Shown: positions 9,231-64,000 of the stretch, piece by piece | Numbering within the stretch: position 1 is the stretch's first letter | Layout: each line of letters starts with the position of its first letter | NCBI GenBank assembly: GCA_950097015.1 | Contig: CATNEN010000038.1 | Coordinates: 12,896,001-12,960,000, forward strand | Reading direction: 5' to 3' | DNA: 64,000 bases | Source of the DNA: Macrostomum hystrix | Taxonomy: Eukaryota; Animalia; Platyhelminthes | Notes under the pieces: model-generated | Database searches by the model: none | Told to the model about the DNA's origin: nothing | The model's input: the letters and a program-made list of their open reading frames with translations, nothing else | Program-made: the position numbers and the translations under genes

Positions 9231-9279
9231 AAGCTGTGATATACTATTAGGATTGCATCTATCGCATAGAAGACGTTTA

Positions 9280-20425: not shown

Positions 20426-21034
20426 TCACCTCAAGGCCTGGGGATACACCACATTCTTCGTTCATCCCCTTGGTGCGAAAATGAATAGGCCAGCTGGAGT
20501 TCCAACACGGGAGCAGGCGACATAAAGCTGCCCATGCGAGAAGCAAGGAGTCTCCAGGTTGATGCCAGCCACCTTCAGCGACTGTCCCTGAGCCTTGTTA
20601 ATAGTCATCGCAAAGCACACTCTCACAGGGAACTGCAGTCGCTTGAACTGAAATGGCAGGTCCGTGGGGATAATTGGAATCCGGGGAACGAACACAGACT
20701 CTCCTCTGCCAGATCCAGTCATTATCGTGGCCTCAATCACGTGTGGGAAGAGCCGCCTGACTATCAGTCTGGTGCCGTTACACAGCCTTGGCGCATTCAG
20801 GTTGCGGAGGAGCATAATTGGTGCCCCAACTTTCAGCTGCAAGTTGTGCGATGGAGTTCCAGGAGGATCTAGAGAGTTCAGAAACTCAACAGGATACTCC
20901 ACAGCGGTGTCATCAGTCAACGTTGTATCAATTGACTTGTAGGTGAAAACTGCACCTGGCAACTCGTGAAGCAGTTGGTAGTTAATTTCGTTGGCGGCAT
21001 CATTTCTAGGACACAGAATTGCCCTCTCTGACAG
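20426..21034 (-). pseudogene. Helitron RepHel Pif1-like helicase C-terminal fragment
   Basis: LSERAILCPRN...LKVGAPIMLLRNL...LCNGTRL...KRLQFPVRVCFAMTINKAQGQS...FSHGQLYVACSRV. An in-frame TGA at 20462-20464 precedes the expected terminal TKNVVYPQALR*. Confidence 0.92.
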
Positions 21035-24948: not shown

Positions 24949-27040
24949 CTAAAAACCCGCCTTTGAAAAGTCGAGTCCGACAACTACGTAGTTTTTTGTA
25001 TCACATCTCAGCTGCTCAAGCAGACACTTAAGTTTACTTTTGACTTCCTCTTTCATGCCGCTGTATGCTACGACAGTGAGCCGCTCAAGATTGGCGGGGG
25101 GAATAATCTCAGGTAGCAACTCATCTCCATCCTGAATTTCCATGTAGATTAGCAGTGAGCTGTGGCCGAGATTGGACTTGCTGAGCATTGCTTCGATGAT
25201 TTTGTTAAGACGATTATTGTCTTGAACTTTTTCAACCAAGATTAAAACTAGAAGCAAACCTGACTGGACACCGGATCCTATGATGCTTCTCAGTAAATCA
25301 GGGCAACCTTTAGAATCGGTCATGAGCTCAGATCGCACCTGAAAGCCAACGAGTTCGAGAAAATTCTGATAGTCCCGCACAGCATCCAACAGACCGGCTG
25401 TTATGAGGACGGCGAGCCCGGGAGAACCTATCGCAGTTTGGAAATTACTAGATTGTGTAATATTAGAATTAGATCACCACAAAGATATACAATGTAGAAA
25501 GAAAACAAGTGCTTAGAATTCTACCTATTGTCTCCTCGCCACGCTGACGCCGACCGCGACTCCGATCTACATCATCGGAGGATTCTGGCTTTTGATTTGG
25601 CTGTTCAGTGAAATCCGTCGTAGTTTCAGTTCCGCTGACAATACTATTTAGTGAAGTATAGAAATGCTTCCGATTCGCTGAAATAATTTAGCAAATGGAT
25701 TGCAGCAGGTTACATTCCGAGTCAGTTTTATCAAATTACCATCAATAAAATTTTACCTGTTCCCATGAATTTCGTTGTGTCAACTATGTAGAAGAGCTTT
25801 CTTGTTAGCACGCACCAGACCGGTACAACCGCAGTTCCTGTGGGTGCAACAGGTAATTTCTCATTAATTCGCGAAATCATTAATGCCACATCGCTAGTGG
25901 CTGCGTTGGCGATGAATGTTTCACAGATAGCACGGACCAGGGGGCTGCCATCATCACAATCGGTGCTAGTAGCTTCAGCCTGGCACCAAATCATGCCGCT
26001 TCTTGGAGGACTTTTTAAGTCCCCGTTTTTAATTCCTTGCTGCTTCCGCAACTTTTCCACAACATCTGGCAGAAAACGCATGAGCCCTGGAGGCACGTGA
26101 TCCGAGTCTCCATGCGGCTGGACTTCCCAGTGTTGCACAATGAGTAGTCTGGGCTTACCCTGAATCTTGTTGCTAGTTGCCATTGCCTCGGTGATTTTGT
26201 CTAGGCAACTGTGGTCCAGCCTCCGATCTGACAAAATAACTAAAGCGCACGAGTCGCCGTGAAATCCCGACTCTGCAAACTTTTTTACACAATCTTCAAC
26301 GTTTTTTAAATTGACGCATCGGTTTGTGCATCCTTAACTCTAAAAACTAAATTTTCAAACAGCGTTAAGAGGAGCGTCCAGTCAGCGTACATCAATTTAT
26401 TATTCCGAGTCCGATCAAGGTTCCGAATGATTAACGCCTGCGGTTTGTGCGCGTTGTCGCGTCTGTTTCTATAAATGAAACCAATTGAACTTTTCAGCGA
26501 TTCGTCAATTTTGTTTTAGAAAGTCTCAGCACCTTCAATTTTGGTTAGCCTATCGGATTCACAAGGCTTTATGATGTCTCTGATAAATTTCTTATTGTTT
26601 ACTCCTCTTACATTGAGCTCACAGTGCATATCAGATAGAATCTTTGACACACACTCGCGATCCAATAGCTCACCCTGCTGATCCTTCAGGTATGAAAATA
26701 ATTTCTCGATATCACTGAAAGGAGCGCCAATGGAGCGGAAATGATCGAGGATTTGTATTTGAAGTCAATATTGCTGAATTGTCTGCACAGTTCTTCGTCT
26801 CTTGAGTTTTCTTTACGCTCGTATTGGGTGCCGCAGCAGCAGCTGATCTACGAGCCGTACATCCTCTCGCAAAGATTTGCGGTACTCAAGAAAGTCTTTC
26901 AAGAAGCACAATGAGGTTTCATCGCAGAGGACAAAGCAGAAAACCTCTTGGACACAAGACGTGTACAGGTTTTGACACCGTGTTAGGCCGTTTTTATGTA
27001 GCGACTGCTCCACTTTGTTGTACAATAACTTAGCGTATAG
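24949..27040 (-). pseudogene. Upstream part of the caspase locus: N-terminal helical region plus two degenerate caspase-like domains, with lesions
   Basis: About 25757-26460: PQALIIRN...HGDSCALVILSD...GKPRLLIVQHW...GSPLVRAICE (no His/Cys; frameshift near 26315). About 24949-25447: PGLAVLIT...LVGFQV...LLLVLIL. In-frame TAG at 24949-24951 and further stops near 26750-26815. Confidence 0.6.
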
Positions 27041-28092
27041 GGTTCCAGTACCGAGAAACGTTCATTTTTGGCAAAGATCAACAGCAAATTTTTTTTGACT
27101 TTCTTGGTTTACTCACGAGATGAGTTTTCTGAAGTCGATGGGGGTAATCCTTCGAGTACTGAAATCATTAAATATGCATCATTGCTTTCTGTTCCTGACG
27201 CCAGGTTCTTCCACCATTTTGGAAACCACAGAAAAATTATAGAATTTTATTCATTTACTAGTAGTTGTAAACTTACTGATTCTTAGTATTAAGAATACTT
27301 ACATAAATATTTGCAGCAGCAGTAAATTTGCGAATGAAAAACACGCGAAATGCTTTTAAGCGACATGATGTCCAGATGAGCTCTGCATTGTCAAATTGAA
27401 TGAAATTGCTGCTGCAAGCAAGCCTTGAACTTGCATGCTAAGTCTGATCAGCTTAAAGTTGACATGGTAAGTATTGTCCTAAAGTTGACTGATGCGCACA
27501 TCAGTTTGCCTGTTGGCAAAAACAAGAGTGTCAAATTGGCAGCGCAGCTAAGTTTTGTCTCATACAATGGAGCAGGCTCTATTGGGAGAATAATGTAGAT
27601 TTATTTCATTAACATATCAGTAGGCTAAGCTGTAGGGTAATTTTATGTCTGATTGGTTGCTATTATGATTGGGAGTGAGAAAAGCACTGCCTGACAAATG
27701 TGAGTCTCACTACTCAGAATTCGGCCTCGTGGCCCAGTGCGCTAATTTCAATACGTTGCTGTAGCTGTAAAGTAGCAGACAGAAAAACTTTTTATAAGCT
27801 CTGTGTAATAATCGGTATGAAAAAAGAGAATTCCCTAGGTACATTAGAGTTTTTTCTACGACAGCATACAATAAAGTCTTTCAAGAAGCACAATGAGGTT
27901 TCATCACAGAGGACAAAGCAGATAACCTCTTGGACACAAGACGTGTACAGGTTTTGACACCGTGTTAGGCCGTTTTTATGTAGCGACTGCTCCACTTTGT
28001 TGTACAATAACTTAGCGTACATAGTACATAATTAGTACATAAAAGTTAATCTAGTTTATCTAGTTATAAAGACGACTTTATTACAGAAGGAT

Positions 28093-30430
28093 CTCCACAC
28101 GCCACATATGATTTATCACAGCCGCCCCCAGTTTCAGCCAGGAGCACTAAGAATCCACACGCCACATAGGATTTATCACAGCCGCCCCCAGTTTCAGCCA
28201 GGAGCACTAAGAATCCACACGCCACATATGATTTATCACAGCCGCCCCCAGTTTCAGCCAGGAGCACTAAGAATCCACACGCCACATAGGATTTATCACA
28301 GCCGCCATCAGTTTCAGCCAGGAGCACTAAGAATCCATCCGCCACATTGTATTTATCACAGCCGCCATCAGTTTCAGCCAGGAGCACTGAGAATCCATCC
28401 GCCACATTGTATTTATCACAGCCGCCATCAGTTTCAGCCAGGAGCACTAAGAATCCACACGCCACATAGGATTTATCACAGCCGCCATCAGTTTCAGCCA
28501 GGACACTAAGAATCCATCCGCCACATAGGATTTATCACAGCCGCCCCCAGTTTCAGCCAGGAGCACTAAGAATCCACACGCCACATAGGATTTATCACAG
28601 CCGCCATCAGTTTCAGCCAGGAGCACTAAGAATCCACACACCACATAGGATTTATCACAGCCGCCCACAGTTTCAGCCAGGAGCACTAAGAATCCACACG
28701 CCACATAGGATTTATCACAGCCGCCATCAGTTTCAGCCAGGAGCACTAAGAATCCATCCGCCACATTGTATTTATCACAGCCGCCATCAGTTTCAGCCAG
28801 GAGCACTGAGAATCCATCCGCCACATTGTATTTATCACAGCCGCCATCAGTTTCAGCCAGGAGCACTAAGAATCCACACGCCACATAGTATTTATCACAG
28901 CCGCCATCAGTTTCAGCCAGGAGCACTAAGAATCCACACGCCACATAGGATTTATCACAGCCGCCCCCAGTTTCAGCCAGGAGCACTAAGAATCCACACG
29001 CCACATAGGATTTATCACAGCCGCCATCAGTTTCAGCCAGGAGCACTAAGAATCCATCCGCCACATTGTATTTATCACAGCCGCCATCAGTTTCAGCCAG
29101 GAGCACTGAGAATCCATCCGCCACATAGTATTTATCACAGCCGCCATCAGTTTCAGCCAGGAGCACTAAGAATCCATCCGCCACATAGGATTTATCACAG
29201 CCGCCATCAGTTTCAGCCAGGAGCACTAAGAATCCATCCGCCACATAGTATTTATCACAGCCGCCATCAGTTTCAGCCAGGAGCACTAAGAATCCATCCG
29301 CCACATAGGATTTATCACAGCCGCCATCAGTTTCAGCCAGGAGCACTAAGAATCCACACGCCACATAGGATTTATCACAGCCGCCATCAGTTTCAGCCAG
29401 GAGCACTAAGAATCCACACGCCACATAGGATTTATCACAGCCGCCCACAGTTTCAGCCAGGAGCACTAAGAATCCACACGCCACATAGGATTTATCACAG
29501 CCGCCATCAGTTTCAGCCAGGAGCACTAAGAATCCACACGCCACATAGGATTTATCACAGCCGCCATCAGTTTCAGCCAGGAGCACTGAGAATCCATCCG
29601 CCACATAGTATTTATCACAGCCGCCATCAGTTTCAGCCAGGAGCACTAAGAATCCATCCGCCACATAGGATTTATCACAGCCGCCATCAGTTTCAGCCAG
29701 GAGCACTAAGAATCCATCCGCCACATAGTATTTATCACAGCCGCCATCAGTTTCAGCCAGGAGCACTAAGAATCCATCCGCCACATAGGATTTATCACAG
29801 CCGCCATCAGTTTCAGCCAGGAGCACTAAGAATCCACACGCCACATAGGATTTATCACAGCCGCCATCAGTTTCAGCCAGGAGCACTAAGAATCCACACG
29901 CCACATAGGATTTATCACAGCCGCCATCAGTTTCAGCCAGGAGCACTAAGAATCCACACGCCACATAGGATTTATCACAGCCGCCCACAGTTTCAGCCAG
30001 GAGCACTAAGAATCCACACGCCACATAGGATTTATCACAGCCGCCATCAGTTTCAGCCAGGAGCACTAAGAATCCACACGCCACATAGGATTTATCACAG
30101 CCGCCATCAGTTTCAGCCAGGAGCACTAAGAATCCACACGCCACATAGGATTTATCACAGCCGCCCACAGTTTCAGCCAGGAGCACTAAGAATCCACACG
30201 CCACATAGGATTTATCACAGCCGCCATCAGTTTCAGCCAGGAGCACTAAGAATCCACACGCCACATAGGATTTATCACAGCTGCCGACAGTTTCAGCCAG
30301 GAGCACTAAGAATCCACACGCCACATAGGATTTATCACAGCCGCCATCAGTTTCAGCCAGGACACTAAGAATCCATCCGCCACATAGGATTTATCACAGC
30401 CGCCCCCAGTTTCAGCCAGGAGCACTAAGA
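28093..30430. repeat. 60-bp tandem satellite, ~39 copies
   Basis: Unit gagcactaagaatccacacgccacataggatttatcacagccgccatcagtttcagccag, with a few variant positions and two 59-bp units (near 28501 and 30361). Confidence 0.97.
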
Positions 30431-30981: not shown

Positions 30982-33900
30982 CTACAACGCAGTCATTGAG
31001 GGCATTGCCGTGCTGTTAAGCAAGGCGGTGACGGCTGCTTTGTTGGCCCAGGACGGATACTCATACAGCTTGAAAATTCCCGGAGCGTAGGACAGTGTTG
31101 CTATGGAAACGATTGAGTTTGACATCAGCGTCATCATCGAGCCAGTGCGGAGCTAGAAGGGCCGGATAGAGGTGTCACTGTTGCTAAAGTAACAATCACT
31201 GAGAACAGAGACTTAGGCTAGTGACAGATCACTTCTGACATAAATGTGTAATTTGCACCAGCTGCTCACCATGTCGAAGGCGGTGAGATAGCCCCTAGAG
31301 TAGACCATTATGTTGGCCGGGGTTGAGATCGGCAGGATGAAGGCGAACGAGCAAGAGGCAGTGCAGCAGAGCATCAGGTAGAATGGGTGCACCCGCAGGC
31401 GCTCGCTCTGTGGTTTTTAAGGTAGAAACAGGTGTTGGACTTCTTAAAGACACCGATTAGAATTCTTAGAATGAGGATCCCACTCAGCCGATCCCCACTG
31501 CAGATCCCACTCAGCCAATCCCCACTGCAGATCCCACTAAGCCAATCCCCACTGCAGATCCCACTCTGCCAATCCCCACTGCAGATCCCCACTGCAAATC
31601 CTACTCAGCCAATCCCCACTGCAGATCCCACTCAGCTAATCCCCACTGCAAATCCCACTCAGCCAATCCACACTGCAGATCCCACTCAGCCAATCCCCAC
31701 TGCATATCCCACTCAGCCGATCCCCACTGCAGATCCCACACATGCAATCCCTACTGCAGATCCCACTCAGCCAATCCCCACTGCAGATCCCACTCAGCCA
31801 ATCCCAAAGCTCACAAAGCTGGCCAGAATGGGCAGAAGAATGGTGGCGGCGGCACCGTTGGAGGTGAGCTCCGTGAGAATGGCCGAACAGAAGCTGAAGA
31901 TGAAGACCAAAGCTTCCAGCGGGATGACGTGAAGCACGTACAGCTGCTTGCCGATCCAATCAGAGAGGCCGGATTCCTAAACAGTTGGGTTGAGTTGCAT
32001 ATTCATATGAGTTTATGCTATCAAAAATTCAGCTGAAAATGACACGGATTTTCAGTGTTCAAACCTTGGACGTCTCAGCTAGAGCCAGTCCGCTGCCAAG
32101 CATGAGCACAATGTGCCAGGCCACTCGTTCCTGCATTAGCTTCCAGTTCATTAACTTGTCCGGCTTTTCCACCACCAGCTGCACCTGAATGTCGTCCGTG
32201 ACGGCCACATCGTAAACCGTTGAGGCGTGCGATCGGCTGACTGGGCGGTGGCAGAAGGCGGCGAATGGGTTGCGGGAGGGGAGCAGGAACAGCAGAATGG
32301 CCGACATGATGGCCGGCTGGGCGTCGCTCATATAGGACACGACGCGATTGTTTTTGTCCTTGCCGCGGAAGAGCGCCGTCCAGCCCGGGACGCCCGGCTC
32401 GCGCGAGATCCACAGGCCGATGGTCACAGCGAAGAGAACCAGCACAAGGATCTCGGCAAAGCTGCAAACAATGGTCGAGCAGGCTTTGATGATGTTTGAG
32501 TAGGCTTTTGTGAAGTTAGGAGATTTTTTAAGTAGGTGTTTGGTTTGAGAAGGCTTTGCTGATTTGAGTAGGATTTGATCTGAGTAGGTTGTAGCATTCT
32601 GAGTTGGCTTCTATGGGTGAGGCAGGGCTCATTGGTCACACTCACGAGATGGGGCCCAGCTGCTCGTACTCCTTGACCAGGCCCTGCTTGATGCGGTCCT
32701 CGTCACTCTTGGGAATCTTCTTGGGCCGGATGAGGGAGCGCAGGCCGAGAAAGCTGATCTGCAGCCAGAGCCAGCTGAGGCCCAGGCAGACAATGGACAC
32801 GGGCATGGCGTAGAACATCCAGCTGCTGTAGTTGAAGCTGGTCTCCGAGCCGAAGTACTCCTGCACGATGCCGTTGAAGATAACGTTCGGCGAGGTGCCA
32901 GTGACGGTGGCGACTCCGCCGAACACGGCGCCGTAGGACACGGACAGCATGATCATCTTGCAGGTGCCGCGGAACTCCGCATTCCTTGGGTCGGCCAGGA
33001 AGTCCTGCGTGAAGGAGGATGCTTGATGCGTGATGAACTTCAAAACCCAACTCAGCCAATCCCCACTGCAGATCCCACAGACAAATTCCCACTGTTGATC
33101 CCACCCAACCCACACCCCATTCCAGTCCCACACAGCCCACACCCCAGTCCAGTCCCACACAGTCTACACTGAAGTCCAGTCCCACACAGTCCACACCCCA
33201 GTCCAGTCCCACACAGTCCACACCCCATTCCAGTCCCACACAGTCCACACCCAGTCCAGTCCCACACAGTCCACACCCCATTCCAGTCCCACACAGTCCA
33301 CACCCCAGTCCAGTCCCACACAGTCCACACCCCAGTCCAGTCCCACACAGTCCACACCCCAGTCCAGTCCCACACAGTCCACACCCCAGTTCAGTCCCAC
33401 ACAGTCCACACCCCAGTCCAGTCCCACACAGTCCACACCCCAGTTCAGTCCCACACAGTCCACACCCCAGTCCAGTCCCACACAGTCCACACCCCAGTCC
33501 AGTCCCACACAGTCCACACCCCAGTTCAGTCCCACACAGTCCACACCCCAGTCCAGTCCCACACAGTCCACACCCCAGTTCAGTCCCACACAGTCCACAC
33601 CCCAGTCCAGTCCCACACAGTCCACACCCCAGTCCAGTCCCACACAGTCCACACCCCAGTTCAGTCCCACACAGTCCACACCCCAGTTCAGTCCCACACA
33701 GTCCACACCCCAGTTCAGTCCCACACAGTCCACACCCCAGTCCAGTCCCACACAGTCCACACCCCAGTTCAGTCCCACACAGTCCACACCCCAGTCCAGT
33801 CCCACACAGTCCACACCCCAGTCCAGTCCCACACAGTCCACACCCCAGTTCAGTCCCACACAGTCCACACCCCAGTTCAGTCCCACACAGTCCACACCCC

Positions 33901-36900
33901 AGTCCAGTCCCACACAGTCCACACCCCAGTTCAGTCCCACACAGCCCACAGCCCAGTCCAGTCCCACACAGTCCAAACCCCATTCCAGTCCCACACAGCC
34001 CACACCCCAGTCCCACCTTCATTGGCAGGTCCAGCGCTGGGTCGTGCGCCGTCTCCGCCTGTCTTTCGGCGCTTTCCGCCACGTCCTGCAGCTGGCATTC
34101 GCCCGGCTCGCCGGAGTAGCAGTTGTTGACGGCGGCAGCCGCCTTCTTGTCGCTCGGTCCGCCGCTGGGCTGGAAGTGCTTCCGCAGCTCCAGCAGCACC
34201 GCCTCAGCAATTGGAATCATCATGGCCGTCGTCGCCGTGTTCGAGATCCACATTGACAGCAGCCAGGTGGGGATCAGGAAACCGAAAAGCAACCTGGCAG
34301 GGCGACAGGTCATTGAGGCATGTAGGGGATTTGGGAATCTGGGAGATGTCTCTCTGGGGATTAGTATCTGCAACCCAGTAAAAAACTCCTACCCTTTCTC
34401 GCAGAGTGCGATGGGATGGGGAATTGTGGTGTAAGAATACATTGGGATGGAAATCTGGTGAATGAGGAACTGGGGAAATAGGGATACGCAGAAATCAGGT
34501 TGGGTAAAAAAGAGTATCTGGAAACGAGGATCTTAGAAATGGAGATCTAGGGAATATTTTTCAGAGGGGAATGGGTTTCTAGTGATGGAGAGCTGATCAT
34601 GTGAGAATGGGGATCTGGGGACTTAAGTATTGAGAGCCTAGTGTTGTGATGGGAATATGAAGAATTACAATTTGAATTGGTTCCAGCCGTGTTTTGCAGT
34701 TAGTTCGGATATAAAATCCTGTCTGTATAAAATAGGGCTCTGAGGTTTCGGGTGATAATAAATATAGCTTAGACTTTTTATTTTTTCTAACGCTTAAGAA
34801 AATTACCCAAACTCGCTACTGTCAGTGAAACCAGGCAGAAAAAAAAGTTTTTTTAAGCAGGTTTGAGAAAACTGTTAACCTTTCACGTGAAATGTAAAAT
34901 GTCAAAGTAAAAAGGCTGTTCATGCGACACTATGCGCTAGCAATAAAAAATTAATTCCCATATTAACATGCCAGACATAAGTGACAGAGGCAGTGACCTG
35001 TCTCCAAACCGATCATCACTCCAGTTAGAAATCTGGTAAGCATATAACAGCACCTGACGCGTTGGCATGGCGACGAGTTTAACGGAAAATTATGGCTTTT
35101 TCAACTTGTCTAATCCGACTGTACCCAGATCGCGGTGGTCAGAATTGAGTTGCAGGTTAAATGTTTACCTGATATTGAATATGGCTCAAACGGTATAATA
35201 TGAATTAGCATTTATCTGGTAGGGCAGTAGCGCCAGTTTGCGGGTCAGTTGTCGGTAACTGGTCATAAACAATTATCATAACTTATCATATTAGTATTCA
35301 TGGAACTCTAGCAGTCACGACAAATCCCATTTGAATAGACGAATCGCTTAGCGCAACATTAAAGTTTGCAATGATATGCTTCGACCATCGACCAGTCAGT
35401 TCTGGCTGGCTTAACAAATTTGAAACTATGCCATTGTTAATAGTGCATCTCACCAGCGAGGCTGCACGCCAAACATGATGAGCACCTTCAGCGCGATCCG
35501 CTTGTGCAGATCCCAAACCTCGATTGATACGGCCAGGATTAAGCCGCCCAGAAACAGCATATTTGAGTCCTGCCGTCGTGGGTGCGCGATTGGAGCATTT
35601 TTTAGACAATTATGGGCGCATTTGGACGGAGTGGAAGGCTAGGCAATGCCATTGATACAGTGACTTTGTTGGAGACAATGAGAGAGATTGATAGGAAGCA
35701 CTGAGAGTGATTGATAGGAAGCACTGAGAGTGATTGATAGGAAGCACTGAGAGATTGATAGGAAGCACTGAGAGAGATTGATAGGAAGCACTGAGAGTGA
35801 TTGATAGGAAGCACTGAGAGTTATTGATAGGAAGCACTGAGAGTGACAGATAGAGACGCACTGAGAGTGACAGATAGAGACGCACTGCGAGTTATTGATA
35901 GAAAGCACTGAGAGTGACAGATAGAGACGCACTGAGAGTGACAGATAGAGACGCACTGAGAGTGACAGATAGAGACGCACTGAGAGTGACAGATAGAGAC
36001 GCACTGCGAGTTATTGATAGAAAGCACTGGGAGTGACGGAGACGCACTGAGAGTGACAGATAGAGACGCACTGAGAGTGACAGATAGAGACGCACTGCGA
36101 GTTATTGATAGAAAGCACTGGGAGTGACGGAGACGCACTGAGAGTGACAGATAGAGATGCACTGAGAGTGACAGATAGAGACGCACTGAGAGTGACAGAT
36201 AGAGACGCACTGAGAGTGACAGATAGAGACGCACTGAGAGTGACAGATAGAGATGCACTGAGAGTGACAGATAGAGACGCACTGAGAGTGACAGATAGAG
36301 ACGCACTGAGAGTGACAGATAGAGATGCACTGAGAGTGACAGATAGAGACGCACTGAGAGTGACAGATAGAGACGCACTGAGAGTGACAGATTATGGCAG
36401 ATAGGGAGACCATAGGAATAACAAAGGGAGTTACGTGACATGGGGAATCGACAGTGACAGATAAACCACTGAGTGACAGGGGCACTGAGAGTGACAAACA
36501 ATCAGGCTAGCCATTTGGCTGTACCTTGAAGTAGGCGGGACAGATGTCCTTGCTGGGCAGGATGCCAAACAGTGGCACCAGCACAACGGGAAACAGAGCC
36601 GTGATGCCCAGCGGCACCACTTCGAAGTTCCAGTAGAAGGACATCAGAATCAGGATGTACCCCGCCTTGGCCTCCTGAGTAAAATTTGGATTTCTATCTC
36701 ATTGTTAAACTCAAAGATCCAATTTCGGGATCCACTGTTTCCCCATCATACCTTGGTACCAATGCAGAACAGTAGAGGCAGCAGGGCGATTGGAATGCCA
36801 AACATGATGCACTGCACCCGGTAGGCGTAGATGACCTTCGCCGTGGTGCGTAGAGACCGACCGAGAGTGCGCAGGACTCCGGATGGTCGCTGCTCGTCAT

Positions 36901-37922: not shown

Positions 37923-38338
37923 GTCGCAATCATTACATTATAGTGTTTTTACAAGCAGTGCTAATGAAGGTTAAAAGACTAGACAAAAAATAAATGGATT
38001 TTTTGGCTGGAGAGACCAAGTTCTATTAGAATCACATCTCATTGCTGCTACTGAAAAGTGAAATCAGCGAGTAGAAGCAAGCACGGTTGAATAACAAAAA
38101 CTGTATTTATTAACATGAAGTGCAAGCTAAACATAATAAACAACATTTTAAACGCATTCAAAGTTAAAGTTAGGATTAATTTTTAGGCAACAATGACAAT
38201 AGGTTTCCCGTTAAATCGATTCAGAACCCCTGCTTCTTTGTTTCAGTTATAACTTCGAGTTGCACTTATGGAGTTCAGACTTTAAGATCAATCTACGCTT
38301 TTATGAAGGATTTTAAGACTCTTAGCTGGATCTATAGG

Positions 38339-38880
38339 ACTCTGGGACTTACAGTTTGTATCCATGTGATTCTGGGTCTTCCAGTTTGTATCCATGGAAT
38401 TCTGGGACTTACAGTTTGTATCCATGGGATTCTGGGTCTTCCAGTTTGTATCCATGTGATTCTGGGTCTTCCAGTTTGTATCCATGTGATTCTGGGTCTT
38501 CCAGTTTGTATCCATGGAATTCTGGGTCTTCCAGTTTGTATCCATGGGATTCTGGGACTTCCAGTTTGTATCCATATGATTCTGGGTCTTCCAGTTTGTA
38601 TCCATGTGATTCTGGGTCTTCCAGTTTGTATCCATGTGATTCTGGGTCTTCCAGTTTGTATCCATGGAATTCTGGGTCTTCCAGTTTGTATCCATGGGAT
38701 TCTGGGACTTCCAGTTTGTATCCATATGATTCTGGGTCTTCCAGTTTGTATCCATGGGATTCTGGGACTTCCAGTTTGTATCCATGTGATTCTGGCTCCT
38801 CCAGTTTGTATCCATGGAATTCTGGGTCTTCCAGTTTGTATCCAAGGGATTCTGGGTCTTCCAGTTTGTATCCATGGGAT
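38339..38880. repeat. 30-bp tandem repeat (~18 copies) just 3' of ERAL1
   Basis: Unit tctgggtcttccagtttgtatccatgtgat. Confidence 0.97.
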
Positions 38881-38957
38881 GCTCTAGTCGGCCTAGAGAA
38901 AGTGGTCTAGCGCTATCAAAATGCTTTGGGCCGGATAAACACGATTAATCAGTAAAA

Positions 38958-54024: not shown

Positions 54025-57000
54025 GGCGGCGGCTGCTGCGGCTGCTGCAGACTCGAGGCTGAGCTACTGCTTTTGTTTAACTGCAATATAAAAGTATTCA
54101 TATTCAACGATTCCATTATTTTTTCAACGGAAAAATTATTTGTAGGCAAAAGATTGTTACCACTAACTTATCGAGTTTCTTCTATTTCAATCATTCATAA
54201 CATTATAAGTACTTCATTTGTTATATTTTGACACAAAAGCCCAAATTAAAATTGCAAGATCTTTTTATTTAACTACTAACAGACCAAGTGGAATCTTTAA
54301 CTCAAACAGTTTTTTATTTTAAATCCTATATGGTCATTCTTTTTTCTATATATATATCAAAAAGCATATAGCATATAGCAATCATTAACAAATATTCTTC
54401 TATTCTTAAAGTCACAAAAAACCCAGCTTGTACTAGGAATTGGTATAGGCTAGCCGAGCTGTAGACAAGCTATTTTAAGATATAAGCTAACTGTAGCCCA
54501 CACTGCAGACCATGTATGGTACAATAGAAATTTCCATCATACAAGGTCCCTGCCTATCATACATGTCATATGAATTTTGGGCAATGGGGCACATTGTCGT
54601 GCACCTGTCGTATAGACTGCCCTTGGAGTTGTTACGCCCTGTTGGCCATTGTACACTTTTTGTTGTATGTGACAACATCATTAGTTTGCTAGTCATTGAA
54701 CTAGAACACCAAAAGAAAACATGTAGGCTATATTTCACTGCATAAAAATATGTGAAGTGTGCAAAACTATTGTGATAAAAAAAGATAATAAATTAATCTG
54801 TTAAATTTCTGCCATGTTAGGTTGTGGTTTAAGGACTAATGTTAATACATTTTTTGACTTCCTAGTATTCAAATTTGTGTTAGTCAAACTACACTTGGTG
54901 ATATTGATACTTGCATGTTTGCTTGTCACTTTATTAACTTAAATCTACCTGTTGGGTGTTGTCCTCTCTACTCCTCTTCTCATCTAATCTATGAGTCTAC
55001 ATCTCTAATAAACATTGTTATATTAGGCTAGACCTTTTGCTATAAAACTCTTATCCTCATGTAGGAATACTGTCGTACATATACAAATATGTTTAAGTCT
55101 AAGATAATTTTGATTACTGTTGTACCATTGTACAACAGAATCCTCAAACTTAGTCTATTGTCATACTGTCATACATTGGGCAAAATTTCAAAATTTCTAT
55201 TGTTGTACATCAAACATGGTCTACACTGCACTAGGCCTATGGACAGTAGCATGGTCAATACAATACTGCCTATGACATTTGAAGCATATGCCATAAGCAT
55301 ATGCCATATAGATATCACTATTGGAATTTAAAACTATTTCCAGTTATAAATTAAAATTAGGCATAAGATAGGCCTAGGCTACAATTAATAAAAACTAAGC
55401 TCTAAGTCTAAATATTATTGACTTGCTAGCAATCTAGCATAGGCTACCAGAAGTCATTAGTCACTACCCACTAGGCCATTAGTCACTCTTGTCTATTGAC
55501 TATTATTAGCTTATAAACATCTTAATCTGCCTAGACGCAAATTGCAATAACACTCTATTACACTCCACTCTATTACACTCATGTGGCAAATATAGGCCTA
55601 TACATTAGGCCCTAATGATTCGAAAAAGTAGAAACCAGTAAATTCGCTATCCTTGTAACACAGTTAGGCCTACTGTCATTGTGTAGTCGACGTCCTGATA
55701 GAAGGATTTATATTTCTTACTCACAGTATGTAATAAAAAAGTTAAAACAAAAAATAAAGTACAAGTAGGTGGTGGAAGTCAATTGGTGGTCTAATCGCTC
55801 GTTCGGGGTTAAGCTAGGGCTAGCCGACGGGCCTACATTACTTTGGAGAAGGTCCTTTGACCTTGTTTTTATGAATTTAATTTACATCGAAAATAATCAC
55901 ATTCTATGTTGATTTTTTTATAGACGAAAATACAATCAGCTTGGCCTTCTTTATTAATTCGTTAAATGCTTTTATAAATAAATAGGCGAGACTAGAATAT
56001 TTGTGTTTCATGGATAAGTAAACATTTAAAACACTTAAAATTTTCTCAATTGCAAATCCAAGTAAAACAAACGACAACTGACATTATTACTGTTTTTGAC
56101 GGTTTCTTTGCATACTTCACATGGTCACTTTTTTCGATGTTCATAAATTTGCGCAGTCTTGGAATGATTTGTAAATTTATATTTAAGACTTTACGGGACG
56201 CCGTGTCTATTTCTAGACAGATAAATATACACAACAACAAAAAACGAAAAAAAAGAGTACAATGTGTCTTTTGATAGATATACTACTGACCAATAGAAGA
56301 AAAAGGACGGGAAACTACGTTTCTTCGAGAAAAAAATTGGAGGTTTTCGCCGGAAGGCTGGACTTCTGGGAGACTGCATGGAGCAACATACAGTGATCCG
56401 AAAATATGATGCCCGATGGTGAAAATTTGTGGCAGCTAGCCAGGATCGTCCAAATCGATTGCCACCGCTTAGTCTACACGGGATCGCTGCAGAACATCTC
56501 GAACCCGACTCGGCGGAAGGAAAGCTTGTGGCGAGCTGGGCAACTCCAGCACAGACGGCGGATTTAATGGAAGCGGCAGAGGCGATGTTTCTAAAGCTGG
56601 CGTAGGCGGAGCAGCTGTCAGAAAGTCTGGCCGGATTGTTGGCGGTAGCGGCTGCGTCGGCTTCTCACGAGGCAACTGTGGTGAGTGTGCAGTGACTAAG
56701 TATGCAGCTACACCTAAGCACTTATAGCAGCGGTTGACAGTAAAAAAGCCAGTGTAATACATTGTAATTGTAAATCCACGACTTAGAAGTTAGAAACCAT
56801 GCACATAAAGTTTAGTCCGAATCGCTTCTAATGAAAAAGAAAGTTAACTTTTCATTGTCTCCAATTTTTCAGTTCAAAACGAACAAAAGTAGCATTCAGC
56901 CTTCCAGTCGCGCTGTAACACAGTTCATGGCACAATAAATGTTCAGATAGGTATAGGTAGCTACATTAAGCTCAACTGTTGATTTGGCCAGCAGGATCTG

Positions 57001-58469
57001 ATCTCGTTCAATGACTTCGGAAATTAGTTTACAGCACCTTATAGCTGTACCATCAATCAGCTGTTATAAGGTAGAACTATGCAAGAATTTTCTACAAACG
57101 GAATTACTGCTTTGAGCTGATCAATGAAACTTTCAGATACTTCGCAAAGTTTATTGACTGTGAGCCTATTTTTCTGTCTCAAAACTGTGTTTGAGCATTC
57201 TTAAAATGCATGGCCGGCTGCTCAAATGCTGGAAAGTATTCTTTGGCCTTATATTTTCATGTCAATTAATAAGTAGCTAAAACTCGGGATTTTTGGCTGT
57301 GCTGTTTTCAAAGTAATCTCGGCTAATAATCCTCTTCATTGCCTCTGTATAGTGCTGTCACATAAGCCTACTTATTATTACGATCGTAATAAGCCTACTT
57401 ACTAGTAATCTGTGCTTTACTACATGCTCCCCGTGTTGCTTACCCTTTTATCTTTATCGCACACGCTCTTGTGATAGGCTGCGCTACGGCATTCATTCCT
57501 TCCCCACGCACCGCCGTCGACCTGACTAGCCCTCCTGTGCTGATGCATTCTCACTGTCGGAGACTGCCATGATTGCTCATGCAGTGCCTTGGCTTTTGAC
57601 TCCATGACCTTTAGGAGCCTGTGATGTGCTTTAGGATAAGAATTCCAGGGTTGATGCCAAGGTTTTGAAAGTGTGCTGACTTTCTGGGTCGACTTTACTC
57701 GTGGGCCGACGGCGAGCGACAACAACAACAAACTCAAGCTTCAACCATCGCATCTCTGGGCCGCATCTATCGCCACAATCAAGAAAAAGCAAACAAATGA
57801 GCATTATGAAGCCAAGAGTATACCCGCGTCGAGATGCCAGTGAGCTGATCAGCTTGCCGGATGACATCCTGACCGAAGATAGGTTTATCCAGGCAGAATA
57901 ATGAAATGTGCGACTTACTTAGAGAGGCAGATATAACTTTCCCTTTTTTCTCTAAATCCTGTGCTCATGTTTAGTTTACAAAGACTTAGTCTGAGTCTTT
58001 GATAATGTGTTTTTACGAGCGTTTTATGGGGCTTTTCACGGTGTTGGTAAGCACACGCTGCGGACTGGACAAAGCCCCGGAGCAACTCTCTCGTGACAAA
58101 TAGGCTCCATGCCTCTTCAATTCTCTCTCCCGATACGAACTCAGGACCGCGAGATGTACGAGAGTCGACCAAAGCACTCTCATGTACATCGTGGCCGCTC
58201 AGAAACGACAATTTTGAATCCTGCATAAAATTTTAATGTAGAAAGTAACACTAGCATTCAATAATTCGTGTTTTTGCTCATGTCTGTCCGTGCTTCAGCC
58301 CTACTCTCTGTTCTAAGCACATCAGGTCAGGGCCTTCTCTGTTCGACCCTCAGTTCTCATTGGCCAGCGGTTGACTCATTGTGGGCCTATATACATGAGA
58401 TTCTATCGTTAGCAGTTATTTCAGCTCATGCGGCTAATGCGGAATCGAATCCCAAGGCACTGAGCAGTC

Positions 58470-58731
58470 ATGACGGTCTCCTACAGTGAGACCATCTCCA
58501 GCAGTCAGGGCGGAGTCTTCATCAAGATTCTGGGCCTGTGGAAGGGCAGCCTGTACAAGCTTGTCTACACGGACCTACTGGCCTACCTGTTCATGTACTA
58601 CGTCTTCAATCTGTGCTACCGGTTGCTCATGGGCCCAGCCGCCAGGCAGAATTTCGAACTGGTGGTGAAGTTCTGCAACGAGATGGACAAAACGATCCCA
58701 CTGTCATTTATTCTCGGCTTCTTTGTGGCAG
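58470..58731 (+). CDS. BEST: Bestrophin chloride channel, first coding exon (gene presumably continues beyond the window)
   Basis: MTVSYS...FIKILGLWKGSLYKLVY...YRLLM...IPLSFILGFFV, followed by the donor gcag|gtgagc. Confidence 0.9.
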
Positions 58732-60464
58732 GTGAGCTGCGGGGTTTAAGAAGGGGATCTTGCAACTCGCAATGGGAAGTTTTGGGCCGAACTAATTTTA
58801 GTAAACTTGACTAATATTAAAAAAATATATAAAACAAAATAGTGCCTCGATTAGCCAAAGTAGGGAAAGTCTGGGCGTGAAATCTGGTCAACACTAAGGA
58901 GAGTCGGAATAAAAGACTATTCTGCATTGCGTGTCGGCATTTTCTGAAAGTATACTGGATGCGTGATAGAGCACTAGATAAATTCAATCCTGAGCTTGCA
59001 TTTCGTGATTCCCGCGTATATAGCTTAGTCGCGCACTTGAAATCGGGCTGCCCCAGAATCTCTTGATTGACATCGTAATGGAACATGTAAGAGCGAGAGA
59101 AAGAGGTGAGAGACGTGTGTTCTAAGCTTGAAATCCTAAAATAACCCTCCGCAGGATGGTGAATGCTCAAGAAAAGTATATTCTGGAATTAAAAACTCTC
59201 GAACTCTGTATATACCAGCTCAAACTAAGACCTCAGTAGAGTTGGCTGTTGAACACTTCCGTACACTTCAATGCATCAAAGTATCATTAGATACTTTGAA
59301 AGAACTGTTTTCAGTCTAGAGTCTAAAAGACTAAGAAAGTGTTGCTTGCCAACAGTTTTGTATTAGAGAATGTATTTCTCTCGAAGCAATGTGTTTGTTG
59401 GTGTGCAAGCAATGAGGGACCATGCTGATGAAGCCAGCGATAAGGGGTCGTGTGTGACAGCTGCTCAGCGGCTTCCGAAGTGTCAGATTGCTAGTAATTT
59501 GACTGAACGAAAGGAATGCAAGGTGAGAAAGTGGAGAACAGGGAAGAAGCAAAGTGGTGATTAGTAGCGGAGTTAATTGTGCGTGTGTTGAGTCCCTCCT
59601 GACGCCCACCGATTTTGTGCCACTGAGTTGCTCAATTTACACCGCAACTCAGCCCGGCCAGTAATTGTGCTCATACCTGTTTGGACTCCGATGTTGCGAG
59701 CGAAGAACAAAAACTTTGCATTCTGTCCGATACAAACTGTCCAAACTGACTCAACTGACTCAATTAAAGTCTTTCAAATTTTAATTTTGAATTTTAAAGA
59801 CATTTGGATGCTCAGATTGGGTAGAGCTGATCCTGAGTATGATGCTCAGGTCAAGTATGTGTCAGTTTTGAGCACAATTTCATGTTGAACTGGTCTTTAT
59901 TATGACTGTCAAATTGAGTCATCAGTCGTCAGTTTTAAGAGCATTTAGAGTTCCGTCAGCCTTAATGGCTTTAGGTGGAGAAAATCACCAAAGAGGATTC
60001 TGACGCAGTAGTATGCAAGAGGGGGCTTCTAGGACAAAAATAATCGCAGCCTCCATTATCCACAAACCATTACTTTTATTATTCCCGAAGAGATCAGGAA
60101 AAAAAGGGTCCCCGCCTCTCTCTAAAAAACTCCGTCTCCATATTCTAAATTCTCTACTTTTAATATCCCACATCAGTTTGTAAGTTGAATATCTAGGACA
60201 AAAATTATCGCAGCCTCCTTAATGCACAAACCATTACCTTTCCTGAAGGAACAAGGTTCCCCCGCCAAAAAAAATACTTTCCAGTTTCTGAACTTGGACA
60301 AAAAAAATTATCGCAGCCACTCCCTAAGAGATCATGCACAAAATAGTGAACCTGTAAAAAGCGTGCCAAGACAATCAAATTAGCACTAAAATCCCATTCC
60401 CAAAACTCAAGACCCCAAACCTTGGGTGCTCATCCTCCGAAAAAAAATTATATTCTCATTAAAA

Positions 60465-60701
60465 ATGCTCCCAATCGTCTCTCAAGGATCTTATTACACA
60501 AGGCATGAGCCTAATTACAAGAGTAAGTACCAATGCAAACAAGAATGCAGCGAGTACATGAAGAAATATTGTCCCAACGTCGATATCAATGTCCCTAATA
60601 TTAATCAAGCTCTCCAAAGTCACTGGTTTCATAAGTATGGAGCAATTATAAAGGACTACGACAGCTACTATAACTTTGCAGAAATCATTAAGCAATTGTA
60701 A
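60465..60701 (+). CDS. Small hypothetical protein of the Polinton-like element
   Basis: ATG in a taaaaATG context like the other element genes; 78-aa Tyr/Cys-rich ORF with no family recognised. Confidence 0.4.
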   Translation: MLPIVSQGSYYTRHEPNYKSKYQCKQECSEYMKKYCPNVDINVPNINQALQSHWFHKYGAIIKDYDSYYNFAEIIKQL

Positions 60702-60954
60702 GTTTTTTTTCGACTAACGATCGATTCTCTGTGGAGTACTCACAACTCCTAGTTTGAGTTTTGGTTGGTGCTCTCGGGAAAGGAATTTAGAGTGAACGAG
60801 ACACATTTCTCTCCTCTCCGTTCTCAACCCAAAGAAAAAGAAGTTCCTTGTTGGAGTTTTATGGTCGGCCTTATAAAAAGAGCATGTTACGTGATTCACC
60901 CAGAGCACGCAGGAACTTCTTATTTTTTTAACTGCCTAATCTCTGGAACTTGCA

Positions 60955-61605
60955 ATGGATGTTGAAATGCCAGCAGGCGACATCGTTTACATCGAAAATC
61001 TGGAGAAATTCATCAAGGCAGTTTTTTCTAGTAAAGATCTTGACAATTGGAATGTTTGGGTCGATAAATATAATGCAATTGCTCGGACACCCATCGCGAA
61101 ACCAACTATAATCAATCGGCTAGCTAAAACTGCCGACAAGCAATCGCAAATCAACAAGACTCTGGACGAGTTGCGCAAGGCCTACAAGGTCAACGGTGAG
61201 CATGTGCCTGAGCATTCTCCACAAGAATTTGCGCAGGGCACATTCCAGATCGAAGCGGTGCTTACACAGATCGCCAACCTTAATAAACTAGTTGAACGGC
61301 GTGGTAAGCAAGGCTTTGCAAACGGCCTACAGCTCGGCAGGATCTTTCTGCGAATGGAGCGGGTTCTCTCTAAGGAACAGTTCAACGAGTTGAAAAGACG
61401 TGCGCCGTTCACCAGCCAGTGGACCAACTTTCTGATGAAATTGGCTGACCAGGCTGAGAAATATCCGGTGCTACTAAGATCTGCAATGTCCCTACACAAG
61501 CTGAAGTCGATGATAGCATACCTGCCAGAGGCCCTGGTGAAGCTGCAACAGGAAGTGGACGAAGACGAAGACTTAATTGACTTAATTGACTTACAACATA
61601 ATTGA
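60955..61605 (+). CDS. Hypothetical 216-aa helical protein of the Polinton-like element
   Basis: Uninterrupted ATG-started ORF with protein-like composition and an acidic tail; no family recognised. Confidence 0.7.
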   Translation: MDVEMPAGDIVYIENLEKFIKAVFSSKDLDNWNVWVDKYNAIARTPIAKPTIINRLAKTADKQSQINKTLDELRKAYKVNGEHVPEHSPQEFAQGTFQIEAVLTQIANLNKLVERRGKQGFANGLQLGRIFLRMERVLSKEQFNELKRRAPFTSQWTNFLMKLADQAEKYPVLLRSAMSLHKLKSMIAYLPEALVKLQQEVDEDEDLIDLIDLQHN

Positions 61606-61608
61606 CAC

Positions 61609-61875
61609 CCACCTCAAATTTCGAAACCACTGGTTTCATTTTCTAGGGTGGTTGTTTCACATGTATGCCATTTTGATTGCCCACCTCAAAATTTGAAACC
61701 AACGGTTTCATTTTCTGAGGTGGTTGTTGGAACAGTACAGGATTCAATTTACCCACCTCAAAATTTGAAACCAACGGTTTCATTTTCTGAGGTGGTTGTT
61801 GGAACAGTGCAGGATTCAATTCACCCACCTCAAAATTTGAAACCAACGGTTTCATTTTCAGAGGTGGTAGTTTGA
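61609..61875. repeat. 72-bp tandem repeat (~4 copies) within the element, between convergent ORFs
   Basis: ccacctcaaa recurs at 61609, 61681, 61753 and 61825. Confidence 0.92.
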
Positions 61876-62144
61876 CTAAAATAGAAAATGAGCTCGGTAG
61901 AGCGTAGAATAAAACGGAGTGGCTAGGAGTTGTTCTGCGTGGTGAGTGAAAAAGCAAATTTGGGGGAGAAAAAGCGGGCCGCTTACCCGGAAACCAGCTG
62001 TTTCTGTTGCGGCTGTTTTGTATTGTTGCATAGGATTAGTTAAAAACACATACGAAAGGTCTTCTGCTGCAAGGCTGTGTTGTTACCCAGAATTTTGAGG
62101 TCGCTGTATAGGATTAGCCATGTCGCTTATCTTGCTTGCTTGAA

Positions 62145-62588
62145 TCATTCTGCTCTCTCAACCCCCAGCTCTTTCAGCAGTCTTCCCAGTTCTTTACTTG
62201 GAGCATGCAATACAAAGCCCACCCCACCAATCCCCAACCCCAACTTTGTCTTACCAAAAATAACAGCTTTAACTAGCTTCCGAGCGATCGATTCCCTCCA
62301 CCCGCTTGAAGCCGCCATATTGTCTAGCATTCTGAGCATTTCTTTGTCCCAGCGAGTCTTCTCCTCTGGAAAATCCCTATACTTAATATCATGCCACATA
62401 CAGACAGAGTCTAGCTCGTTCACTGGCTCATGCCCAGGATTTGGATTATTGTTTTTATCTAGCTGTATTTCAAGCGGATTCAAAGGCCCGCAATATTTGT
62501 AGCCGGGAATTGTCCAGCCTTTGTTTGGATGAGGAAGCTTTTCTACCAGTCCATGTGAGTCTAAGTTTCCACCAAAGCGTTGCATCAT
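62145..62588 (-). CDS. Parvovirus VP1u-type phospholipase A2 domain protein
   Basis: Ca2+-loop motif IPGYKYCGP, PVNELD, catalytic HDIKY and downstream D (RWDKEML). Confidence 0.88.
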   Translation of the reverse strand: MMQRFGGNLDSHGLVEKLPHPNKGWTIPGYKYCGPLNPLEIQLDKNNNPNPGHEPVNELDSVCMWHDIKYRDFPEEKTRWDKEMLRMLDNMAASSGWRESIARKLVKAVIFGKTKLGLGIGGVGFVLHAPSKELGRLLKELGVERAE

Positions 62589-62614
62589 TTTTATAAAAAA
62601 TTAAATAAAAAATA

Positions 62615-63604
62615 ATGACAGATCAGAAACTTCAAAAGCCCTACTACAGCGACAAAGGATTCTTTGTAGGAAAAAATGCAGTCACCAAACTCGCAGAACT
62701 AAGCAATGAATCAAAACAAACAGTTGAAAGATGGCTCTCTAAGCAAGCAGTTTACCAAGTCTATTTCCCACCTGTTAAATTTGCAAGACCTCACTTTAAC
62801 ATCTATAAACCTAATGAAGCGCACCAAGCAGATCTTCTGTTTCTCCCCAACGACTCAGGCTACAAGTATGCTCTCACAGTTATAGACATTGCCTCCAGAT
62901 ATAAGGAAGCGAGACCGCTTAAGACTAAGAAGTCAGAAGCAGTTGCAGCTGCCCTCCAATACATTTACAAAAACTCACCGCTCACATACCCCCAAACCTT
63001 TATGACTGATCCTGGCAAAGAATTCATGGGAGCAGTCAAATCCCTTATGGAAAAGAACAATACGAAAATGCGCTATGGAAGAACTGAGCTCCATAGAGAC
63101 CAGGCTTTTGTTGAAAGATTCAATCTAACTCTAGCAAAGAGACTTTTCACAAAGCAGACAGCTGAAGAGCTGAAACTAAAAAGTGGCCAATACTATACCA
63201 AGTGGACAGAAAGACTCCCCGCAGTAATAAGTCAACTGAACAATGAAGTATCTCGAATGACAAACCTGAAACCAAATACTGCCATCAAACAAGACACAGT
63301 TGAATCAAAACATCCGATCGCCAATTTCAACTATCCAAAGCTCCCTGGCGTTTATTCTCCGGAAATTCTTACTAACTCTGAATTCGTTCGCTTCCTTTAC
63401 TTACCAGGAGAGCTGGAGAAGGACACAAAGAGAAGAGCAACAGACCCATACTTTAGTCTTGATGTACATAAGATAAACAGGCATTTCACATCAGCATCCG
63501 GCGATTACTATTTTCTATCCCAAGACTTTAATTCAAAAGCCCCCACACGATCATTCACAAGGGCTGAGCTTCTAGTGATTCCACATGACACAGAAATAAA
63601 TTAA
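62615..63604 (+). CDS. Retroviral-like (rve) DDE integrase of Polinton/Maverick type
   Basis: HQADL (D), YKYALTVIDIASRY, FMTDPGKEF (D), QAFVERFNLTL (E); intact 329-aa ORF with no adjacent RT or RNase H. Confidence 0.92.
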   Translation: MTDQKLQKPYYSDKGFFVGKNAVTKLAELSNESKQTVERWLSKQAVYQVYFPPVKFARPHFNIYKPNEAHQADLLFLPNDSGYKYALTVIDIASRYKEARPLKTKKSEAVAAALQYIYKNSPLTYPQTFMTDPGKEFMGAVKSLMEKNNTKMRYGRTELHRDQAFVERFNLTLAKRLFTKQTAEELKLKSGQYYTKWTERLPAVISQLNNEVSRMTNLKPNTAIKQDTVESKHPIANFNYPKLPGVYSPEILTNSEFVRFLYLPGELEKDTKRRATDPYFSLDVHKINRHFTSASGDYYFLSQDFNSKAPTRSFTRAELLVIPHDTEIN

Positions 63605-63621
63605 ATTTTTTTTTAAATAAA

Positions 63622-64000
63622 ATGATTGAAACCAGAACCGTGAATAAAATCAGCAGAATTATCGACTCTAAGAAGCCAGGAGTTGTATCAATTAAAGGTG
63701 TCAAAGTCAAAGTAGATCCAATCCAGCATCTGATCCATTGTAACAATCAAACGCACAATATCACTGATGAGAAGACAGGTGGGATTCTTCCTTTGCTAAC
63801 TCTTATCCCCATCATCGCAGGTGCTCTTGGTGCTGCAGGAGGTGTAGCCGGCGGAGTTGCATCAGCTGTGAAGGCTGGCAATGACAGAGCACATCAACAA
63901 GAGATGGAGAAAATCGCTAGAGAAAAAGGAGTCAGAATCGGGGGTAGTTGTGAATCTGATGAATCAGCTGATGAATCAGTCAGCAAATCAGAAATCGTTA
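63622..64000 (+). CDS. Adenovirus pX-like core/membrane-active protein (partial, runs off the window)
   Basis: Manual translation MIETRTVNKISRIIDSKKPGVVSIKG...EKTGGILPLLTLIPIIAGALGAAGGVAGGVASAVKAG...; the hydrophobic segment resembles the adenovirus pX motif GGILPLLIPLIAAAIGA. Confidence 0.72.
   Translation, partial: MIETRTVNKISRIIDSKKPGVVSIKGVKVKVDPIQHLIHCNNQTHNITDEKTGGILPLLTLIPIIAGALGAAGGVAGGVASAVKAGNDRAHQQEMEKIAREKGVRIGGSCESDESADESVSKSEIV

What the first reader, a model, noticed from the sequence alone, without database searches (positions are those of the whole stretch)
60001..64000. Apparently intact endogenous Polinton/adintovirus-like element downstream of bestrophin exon 1
Seen: an abrupt switch to compact intronless ORFs after a terminal AGTAGT, an intact DDE integrase, a PLA2 gene and a pX-like gene, with no disabling lesions in these ORFs. 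Established: Polintons/Mavericks have AG-starting TIRs, 6-bp TSDs, an rve integrase, pPolB, an ATPase, a protease and capsid genes, and adintovirus-type members carry PLA2 and pX-like genes. Inference: a young, possibly virion-forming endogenous virus of an invertebrate host inserted in the bestrophin intron; predicted TSD tgacgc (60001-60006).
Basis: partly seen in the sequence, partly recalled or inferred. Interest (0 to 1): 0.85.

Follow-up and report, generated by a model that had tools for sequence, protein, structure and literature searches.

The report
Polinton end with optional cargo cassette
Inside an intron of a chloride-channel gene of an animal, likely a flatworm, sits one end of a many-copy virus-like transposon that is most likely an ordinary Polinton/Maverick; its visible genes are unbroken and it carries an optional extra gene followed by palindromic repeats, but its polymerase and capsid genes, if present, would lie beyond the window and were not seen.

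Summary
An element starts exactly at 60007 (AGTAGT): 7 contigs in 3 of 4 runs leave the window there into other flanks. It carries an open DDE integrase, a parvovirus-type PLA2 and an adenovirus-pX-like ORF, within the intron after the first coding exon of a bestrophin. It is a multi-copy family, also present in a second organism. Of 82 loci with related integrases (27-49% identity), 69 show a PolB, helicase, A32 ATPase or capsid-like gene, so Polinton class is likely. 'Intact', 'young', 'virion-forming' and the TSD could not be tested: polymerase, capsids and right end lie outside the window and no genome is held. The one complete relative has a 5-bp, not 6-bp, TSD. New member of a known kind; modest interest.

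The parts
58470..58731 (+). Host bestrophin, first coding exon; GT donor at 58732
   Evidence: Pfam Bestrophin E 5e-26; donor sequence; X15 and X19 contigs leave the exon at 58729 into bestrophin-like coding sequence. No next exon motif between donor and element.
60001..60006 (+). Left flank; candidate target-site duplication (5 or 6 bp), untested
   Evidence: Sequence; right flank not in window; relative L047 has a 5-bp duplication.
60007..60700 (.). Left terminal region, likely the terminal inverted repeat (inner boundary uncertain), with 3 sub-repeats of a 16-50 bp motif at 60028, 60192 and about 60293
   Evidence: Loose ends at 60007; summed contig depth about 8,000-12,000 against 2,200-5,900 in the core and 70 in the flank in X1 (rough, not a copy number); sub-repeats D2, D6, D7.
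60465..60701 (+). 78-aa ORF, no family; likely a real gene
   Evidence: no Pfam or PHROG hit; indels near 60645-60648 in other copies add up to 3 bases in X1, X9, X15 and X19.
60701..62150 (.). Optional cassette in a variable slot; borders approximate
   Evidence: Depth about 200-400 against 2,200-5,900 in X1 and about 90-350 against 4,700-9,600 in X9; one X19 contig joins 60700 to 62156; X2 and X3 contigs enter at 62136 from other sequence.
60955..61605 (+). 216-aa predicted all-helical orphan ORF (candidate cargo or DNA-binding gene); TATAAAA at 60872 inside an 18-bp inverted repeat, AATAAA at 61908
   Evidence: 5 hits among 1.84 billion proteins, 4 of them aligned; model pLDDT 71.6; no significant fold match; motifs.
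61607..61872 (.). 3.7 copies of a 72-bp unit, each holding a 43-bp imperfect palindrome; starts 2 bases after the ORF216 stop
   Evidence: TRF score 335; 3 of 4 units fold better than all 200 shuffles, the first does not; pattern matches both strands of all 4 units, 0 expected.
62145..62588 (-). Parvovirus-type phospholipase A2, 147 aa; calcium-loop and His-Asp motifs present
   Evidence: profile hits parvoviral VP1 capsid chains, best E 0.0015.
62615..63604 (+). Retrovirus-like (rve) DDE integrase, 329 aa, D73/D132/E167
   Evidence: 14 of 19 listed variable sites at third codon positions.
63622..64000 (+). Adenovirus pX-like ORF, cut by the window end
   Evidence: Adeno_PX E 4.8e-6.

Best explanation
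This is one end of a multi-copy, integrase-bearing mobile element, most likely a Polinton/Maverick (adintovirus-like) with a protein-primed DNA polymerase and capsid genes predicted beyond the window. Shown: the terminus, the open integrase, PLA2 and pX-like genes, the multi-copy family, and the optional cassette. Inferred from the known family: the polymerase copies the linear element from its ends, the integrase inserts the copy into host DNA with a short target duplication (here in a bestrophin intron), and PLA2 and pX would be virion accessory proteins for membrane entry and core packaging. This copy belongs to a minority subfamily that carries a cargo cassette between the end and the integrase. 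My best guess for the cassette (about 25%) is a helical DNA-binding protein acting on the four palindromes behind its own gene.
For: Exact terminus with other flanks in 7 contigs of 3 of 4 runs and in a second organism. Three Polinton-type genes above Pfam cut-offs. 69 of 82 integrase-related loci, and 23 of 25 loci of 8 kb or more, carry a PolB, helicase, A32 or capsid-like gene; 56 of 82 hit a PolB ORF, 7 an SF1 helicase (queries typed by Pfam). The complete relative L047 has AGTAGTAT ends, a 107-bp perfect TIR and a TSD; L035 starts alike. Integrase variation falls mostly at third codon positions, 14 of 19. Nematode Mavericks have a variable cargo region between left TIR and integrase (bioRxiv 2022.07.12.499685, passages).
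Against: No polymerase, ATPase or capsid hit in the window, and no protease or right end was seen. The window's own integrase clade (7 rows, SH-aLRT 99, quick tree) has no member with known context; the loci with context are only 44-49% identical. Gene order differs: in the long relatives a convergent PolB or helicase gene follows the integrase, here a same-strand pX-like gene does; pX was found in 0 of 82 loci and PLA2 in 5 of 82, on the integrase strand. The capsid-like query has only a sub-threshold Pfam hit (E 2e-4). Some family copies are broken (frameshift near 62671, deletion 62311-62471). For the DNA-binding guess: no family or fold support, and ORF216 sites show no third-position excess, 4 of 10.
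Confidence: 0.72

Rival explanations
1. A Polinton-like virus of the same class that replicates with an SF1 helicase module rather than pPolB, so not a Polinton in the strict sense.
For: 7 of 82 integrase-related loci carry an SF1 helicase gene in the PolB position, interspersed with PolB loci in the tree; one of them (L056) also has PLA2 beside the integrase. A PLA2 relative sits in an element with primase-helicase and tyrosine recombinase (L083, 27% identity).
Against: 56 of 82 loci hit a PolB ORF. Most coral elements have PolB and rve integrase (PMC11131425 passages).
Confidence: 0.12
2. A deleted, non-autonomous derivative that keeps the ends, integrase, PLA2 and pX but lacks polymerase or capsid genes and is moved by complete copies.
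For: Broken copies exist in the family. Terminal depth is 2-4 times core depth in X1, which may exceed what two ends alone give (rough).
Against: All five visible ORFs are open; the integrase is full length against its relatives.
Confidence: 0.12
3. An integrase-only DNA transposon (Ginger-like) with captured genes, or an assembly chimera.
For: Only 4 kb are visible.
Against: One X1 contig runs from 57000 to 60034 across the junction with no differences (X1 may be the source sample). The integrase groups with Polinton-type loci. PLA2 plus pX are described virion-accessory genes.
Confidence: 0.04

Closest known systems
Animal Polintons/Mavericks (Polintoviricetes)
   Same: AG-starting terminus, rve DDE integrase, compact intronless ORFs, multi-copy chromosomal insertions; nearest loci with context (likely cnidarian and other marine animals, by recall of that clade) share the AGTAGTAT end.
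   Different: Forms its own integrase clade (62-73% identity within, under about 52% to others); integrase lies near the end and is followed by pX, not PolB; core genes not seen.
Alpha (Mayetiola-class) adintoviruses, Starrett et al. 2021 (PMC8502044; passages and section 3.1 read)
   Same: Parvovirus-type PLA2 and pX-like sequences together with an rve integrase.
   Different: PLA2 and pX are separate, oppositely oriented genes on either side of the integrase; no pX domain detected in the PLA2. OTU-PolB, adenain, hexon and penton not testable.
Cargo-bearing nematode Mavericks (bioRxiv 2022.07.12.499685; passages read)
   Same: A poorly conserved region between left TIR and integrase that holds exchangeable genes.
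   Different: The cargo here is an intronless helical orphan with a palindrome array, with no sign of a protease or kinase family; no horizontal transfer was tested.
Baculovirus hr / EBV oriP-type palindrome arrays (recalled; raised in earlier scan notes)
   Same: Tandem units that each hold a palindrome, next to a possible DNA-binding gene.
   Different: Optional in the family, so not needed for replication of most copies; no similarity to IE1 or EBNA1 was found in the family or fold searches.

Membership tests
Polinton/Maverick | rve DDE integrase | tested here: met
   Pfam rve E 3.4e-9; D73/D132/E167
Polinton/Maverick | Defined terminus beginning with AG (AG rule recalled) | tested here: met
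   Loose ends exactly at 60007; same AGTAGTAT start in L035 and L047
Polinton/Maverick | Terminal inverted repeats of 100-1500 bp | tested here: inconclusive
   Right end not in window; higher depth over 60007-60740 fits a two-ended repeat. Range from bioRxiv 2023.08.22.554363 passage
Polinton/Maverick | 5-8 bp target-site duplication | not testable with these tools
   Right flank missing, no genome held; no empty site seen
Polinton/Maverick | Protein-primed PolB | not testable with these tools
   Not in window; 56 of 82 related loci hit a PolB ORF
Polinton/Maverick | A32/FtsK ATPase, adenain-like protease, major and minor capsid proteins | not testable with these tools
   No A32 or capsid-like hit in window; 26 and 22 of 82 related loci; protease not searched
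Alpha adintovirus | Parvovirus-type PLA2 gene | tested here: met
Alpha adintovirus | pX-like domain at the C-terminus of PLA2 (PLA2X) | tested here: inconclusive
   No Adeno_PX hit in the PLA2 or 4 close relatives; hhalign probability 3%; a separate pX gene is present. The short domain may escape detection
Alpha adintovirus | OTU-pfam03175 PolB | not testable with these tools
   Outside the window
HTH DNA-binding protein (ParB/DUF3102-like; resemblance recalled) for ORF216 | Profile or fold match to an HTH family | tested here: inconclusive
   No Pfam hit for 5 members except a spurious FemAB; Spo0J and Raf1 at Z 5.2-5.3, rmsd over 5, within noise

The most novel reading that the evidence does not exclude
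A Polinton lineage of flatworm-like hosts carries a swappable regulator-operator cassette: a new family of helical DNA-binding proteins with an array of its own palindromic sites, kept in a minority subfamily across two host organisms and acting as a switch or episome-maintenance element of an endogenous virus. Two unchecked earlier notes describe a similar gene-plus-palindrome layout near other Polinton ends.
Probability: 0.2. Interest if true: 0.6.

Novelty: new member of a known kind. Interest (0 to 1): 0.3.

Why it matters
Polintons are common in invertebrate genomes, so one more insertion is routine. Two things add some value. First, the family forms its own integrase clade, and I found no paper on Polintons of Macrostomum in the library (Repbase and subscription papers not covered); if the host is that laboratory flatworm, activity of the family could be observed directly. 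Second, control of animal Polintons is poorly understood (my recall), and an optional gene-plus-palindrome cassette is a concrete, testable candidate for such control.

Tried and rejected
Rest of the element: no genome held; terminus pattern 0 matches in viral contigs; integrase alone 0 loci; close-clade alignment 0 loci in viral contigs and one 1.9-kb contig at 48% in prokaryote genomes. Earlier-findings look-ups by place and by sequence were empty. Expression: no RNA holder listed; element-like contigs occur in X15 and X19, which also hold spliced-looking bestrophin contigs, but their RNA label is a guess, DNA may be present and no silent control was covered, so this is not used as evidence. 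Empty site: none seen; X2-X4 and X9 do not cover the intron, and contigs drop rare variants, so nothing follows. ORF216: word-index search 0 of 177 candidates; single-sequence model useless, pLDDT 37.5; Foldseek PDB and BFVD no match at E 0.001; VIA best Z 6.3; PDB sequence profile best E 0.024; phages, plasmids and viral contigs nothing; the protein atlas gave no answer. Heat-shock promoter as in the earlier notes: no canonical element upstream of ORF216. Palindrome pattern 0 matches in viral contigs; no repeated palindrome array in 16 long related loci with my scan. Rfam: 5 sub-threshold hairpin-type hits, taken as chance. Poxvirus-like promoter idea: the paper checked has no passage on promoters (PMC11296320); A-rich start contexts are also the usual invertebrate context (recalled); not pursued. 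One paper id was not held. Supplements of bioRxiv preprints could not be seen; the one held supplement of PMC8502044 may be cut.
Full report
Observation. The sequence reads tgacgc (60001-60006) then AGTAGT (60007-60012). Five ORFs follow: 78 aa (60465-60701+), 216 aa (60955-61605+), 147 aa (62145-62588-), 329 aa (62615-63604+) and at least 126 aa (63622 to the window end). Pfam names three of them above its cut-offs: rve integrase, Phospholip_A2_4 and Adeno_PX; the upstream ORF matches bestrophin profile positions 1-87. The integrase has D73, D132 and E167 and is full length against 22 relatives. The PLA2 keeps the YCGP loop and HD motif and its profile hits parvoviral VP1 chains weakly. GC does not change at the border (41.9% against 42.0%); coding density does (68%).

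The end is real. The AGTAGT word alone is at chance level. No genome is held, so I laid public contigs on the stretch. In 3 of 4 runs, 7 contigs match from 60007 inward and continue outward into other DNA (92 further loose-end rows were not shown); a run of a second organism shows the same (record 23). One X1 contig crosses the junction from 57000 to 60034 without a difference, which argues against a chimera, though X1 may be the source sample. Summed depth in X1 is 70 on the flank, 2,200-5,900 on PLA2, integrase and pX, and 8,000-12,000 on 60007-60740. This is not a copy number, but it shows a family of many copies and fits a terminal repeat present at both ends. Some copies are broken (frameshift near 62671, deletion 62311-62471). 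Of 19 listed variable sites in the integrase, 14 are third codon positions (p 4e-4; the tool lists were cut, and I left out three sites inside a compensated frameshift), which suggests selection on the protein.

Host context. The bestrophin exon ends at a GT donor (58732). Contigs of X15 and X19 leave the exon there into bestrophin-like coding sequence, so the donor is used in a related organism. No next-exon motif lies between donor and element, so the element most likely sits in that intron. The host is probably a macrostomid flatworm; the only named homologue of ORF216 is a Macrostomum lignano hypothetical protein. This is inference.

What class of element. The integrase has 1,285 relatives. 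A metagenome scan kept the best 80 of 523 confirmed loci; with 2 viral contigs that makes 82. Using queries typed by Pfam, 56 hit a PolB ORF (some only short pieces at contig ends), 7 an SF1 helicase, 26 an A32 ATPase and 22 a capsid-like protein; 69 of 82 have at least one, and 23 of 25 loci of 8 kb or more. L047 is a complete element with AGTAGTAT ends, a 107-bp perfect TIR and a 5-bp duplication, and L035 starts with the same word. The limit: in a quick tree of 88 rows (9 loci without hallmark genes and one duplicated protein left out), the window forms a separate 7-row clade (SH-aLRT 99) whose other members lie on contigs of 1.4-2.3 kb with no context. Gene order also differs from the long relatives. 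So Polinton class is likely, but the replicase type and capsid set of this family are inferred, not seen. None of those genes is in the window, and five scans for close relatives with long context failed.

The cassette. 60744-62147 has depth of only 200-400 in X1 and 90-350 in X9, where the core has 4,700-9,600 (one bin is lower still). One X19 contig joins 60700 to 62156, and X2 and X3 contigs enter at 62136 from other sequence. The slot therefore has at least three states, and the state seen here is a minority in both organisms. It holds ORF216 and, 2 bases after its stop, 3.7 units of 72 bp, each with a 43-bp imperfect palindrome. ORF216 has 5 hits among 1.84 billion proteins, the best 47% identical over nearly its whole length. 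Its model is all-helical (pLDDT 71.6) with a basic stretch at residues 95-200 (17 K/R, 9 D/E), but no family or fold match is significant. A variable cargo region between left TIR and integrase is described as common in nematode Mavericks (bioRxiv 2022.07.12.499685, passages), so the slot itself is a known feature. Two earlier AI notes describe a predicted DNA-binding gene with a palindrome array near other Polinton ends. They are leads only; they showed no sequence likeness and their heat-shock promoter is absent here. The array could equally act as RNA hairpins in the 3' untranslated region, since an AATAAA follows at 61908.

Mechanism. Shown: terminus, multi-copy insertion, open integrase, PLA2 and pX-like genes, optional cassette. 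From established knowledge (PMC6431247, PMC8502044 and bioRxiv 2023.08.22.554363, passages): Polintons replicate with a protein-primed PolB, integrate with the rve integrase leaving 5-8 bp duplications, and often encode capsids; PLA2 is thought to help membrane passage during entry. Inferred: that this family does the same. Guess: ORF216 binds the palindromes (about 25%).

Comparison and novelty. It works like an animal Polinton and meets every defining feature that could be tested; TIR pair, TSD, PolB and capsids could not be. It resembles alpha adintoviruses in having PLA2 and pX, but as two genes, not a detected fusion. Searches pairing Macrostomum with Polinton or Maverick listed 1 and 2 papers on other subjects (listings only), and the one held supplement of PMC8502044 has no flatworm term; Repbase and subscription papers were not covered. 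Verdict: a new member of a known kind. Interest 0.3; the cassette reading would deserve 0.6 if true (probability 0.2).

Noticed in passing
window 62589-62614: Only 26 AT-rich bases separate the head-to-head start codons of PLA2 and integrase; four of five element ORFs have an almost pure A/T run before the ATG, while ORF216 has a separate TATA box 83 bases upstream.
   Followed up: partly
window 63320-63333: Many copies in X2-X4, X9, X15 and X19 differ from the window by a compensating pair of one-base indels in the integrase; both forms stay open.
   Followed up: partly
L020, L024, L025, L027, L028, L033, L056: Elements with this integrase type carry an SF1 helicase gene where relatives carry PolB, scattered through the integrase tree.
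   Followed up: partly
L047 200-15482: A complete 15.3-kb Polinton with a 107-bp perfect TIR and a 5-bp target duplication.
   Followed up: yes
window 10252-11322: Open 356-aa frame that looks like a Tc1/IS630-type transposase (by eye).
   Followed up: no
window 20462-21142: Helitron/PIF1-like helicase fragment on the minus strand (by eye).
   Followed up: no
window 24094-26333: Caspase-like frames on the minus strand, possibly more than one caspase domain (by eye).
   Followed up: no
window 28036-30390, 33037-34388, 38180-38944: Long tandem-repeat arrays; the one near 33100-34000 appears to interrupt an SLC13-like transporter gene (by eye).
   Followed up: no
window 59340-59573: A short repeated piece in the bestrophin intron, covered in X2 and X4 with a loose end at 59473.
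   Followed up: no
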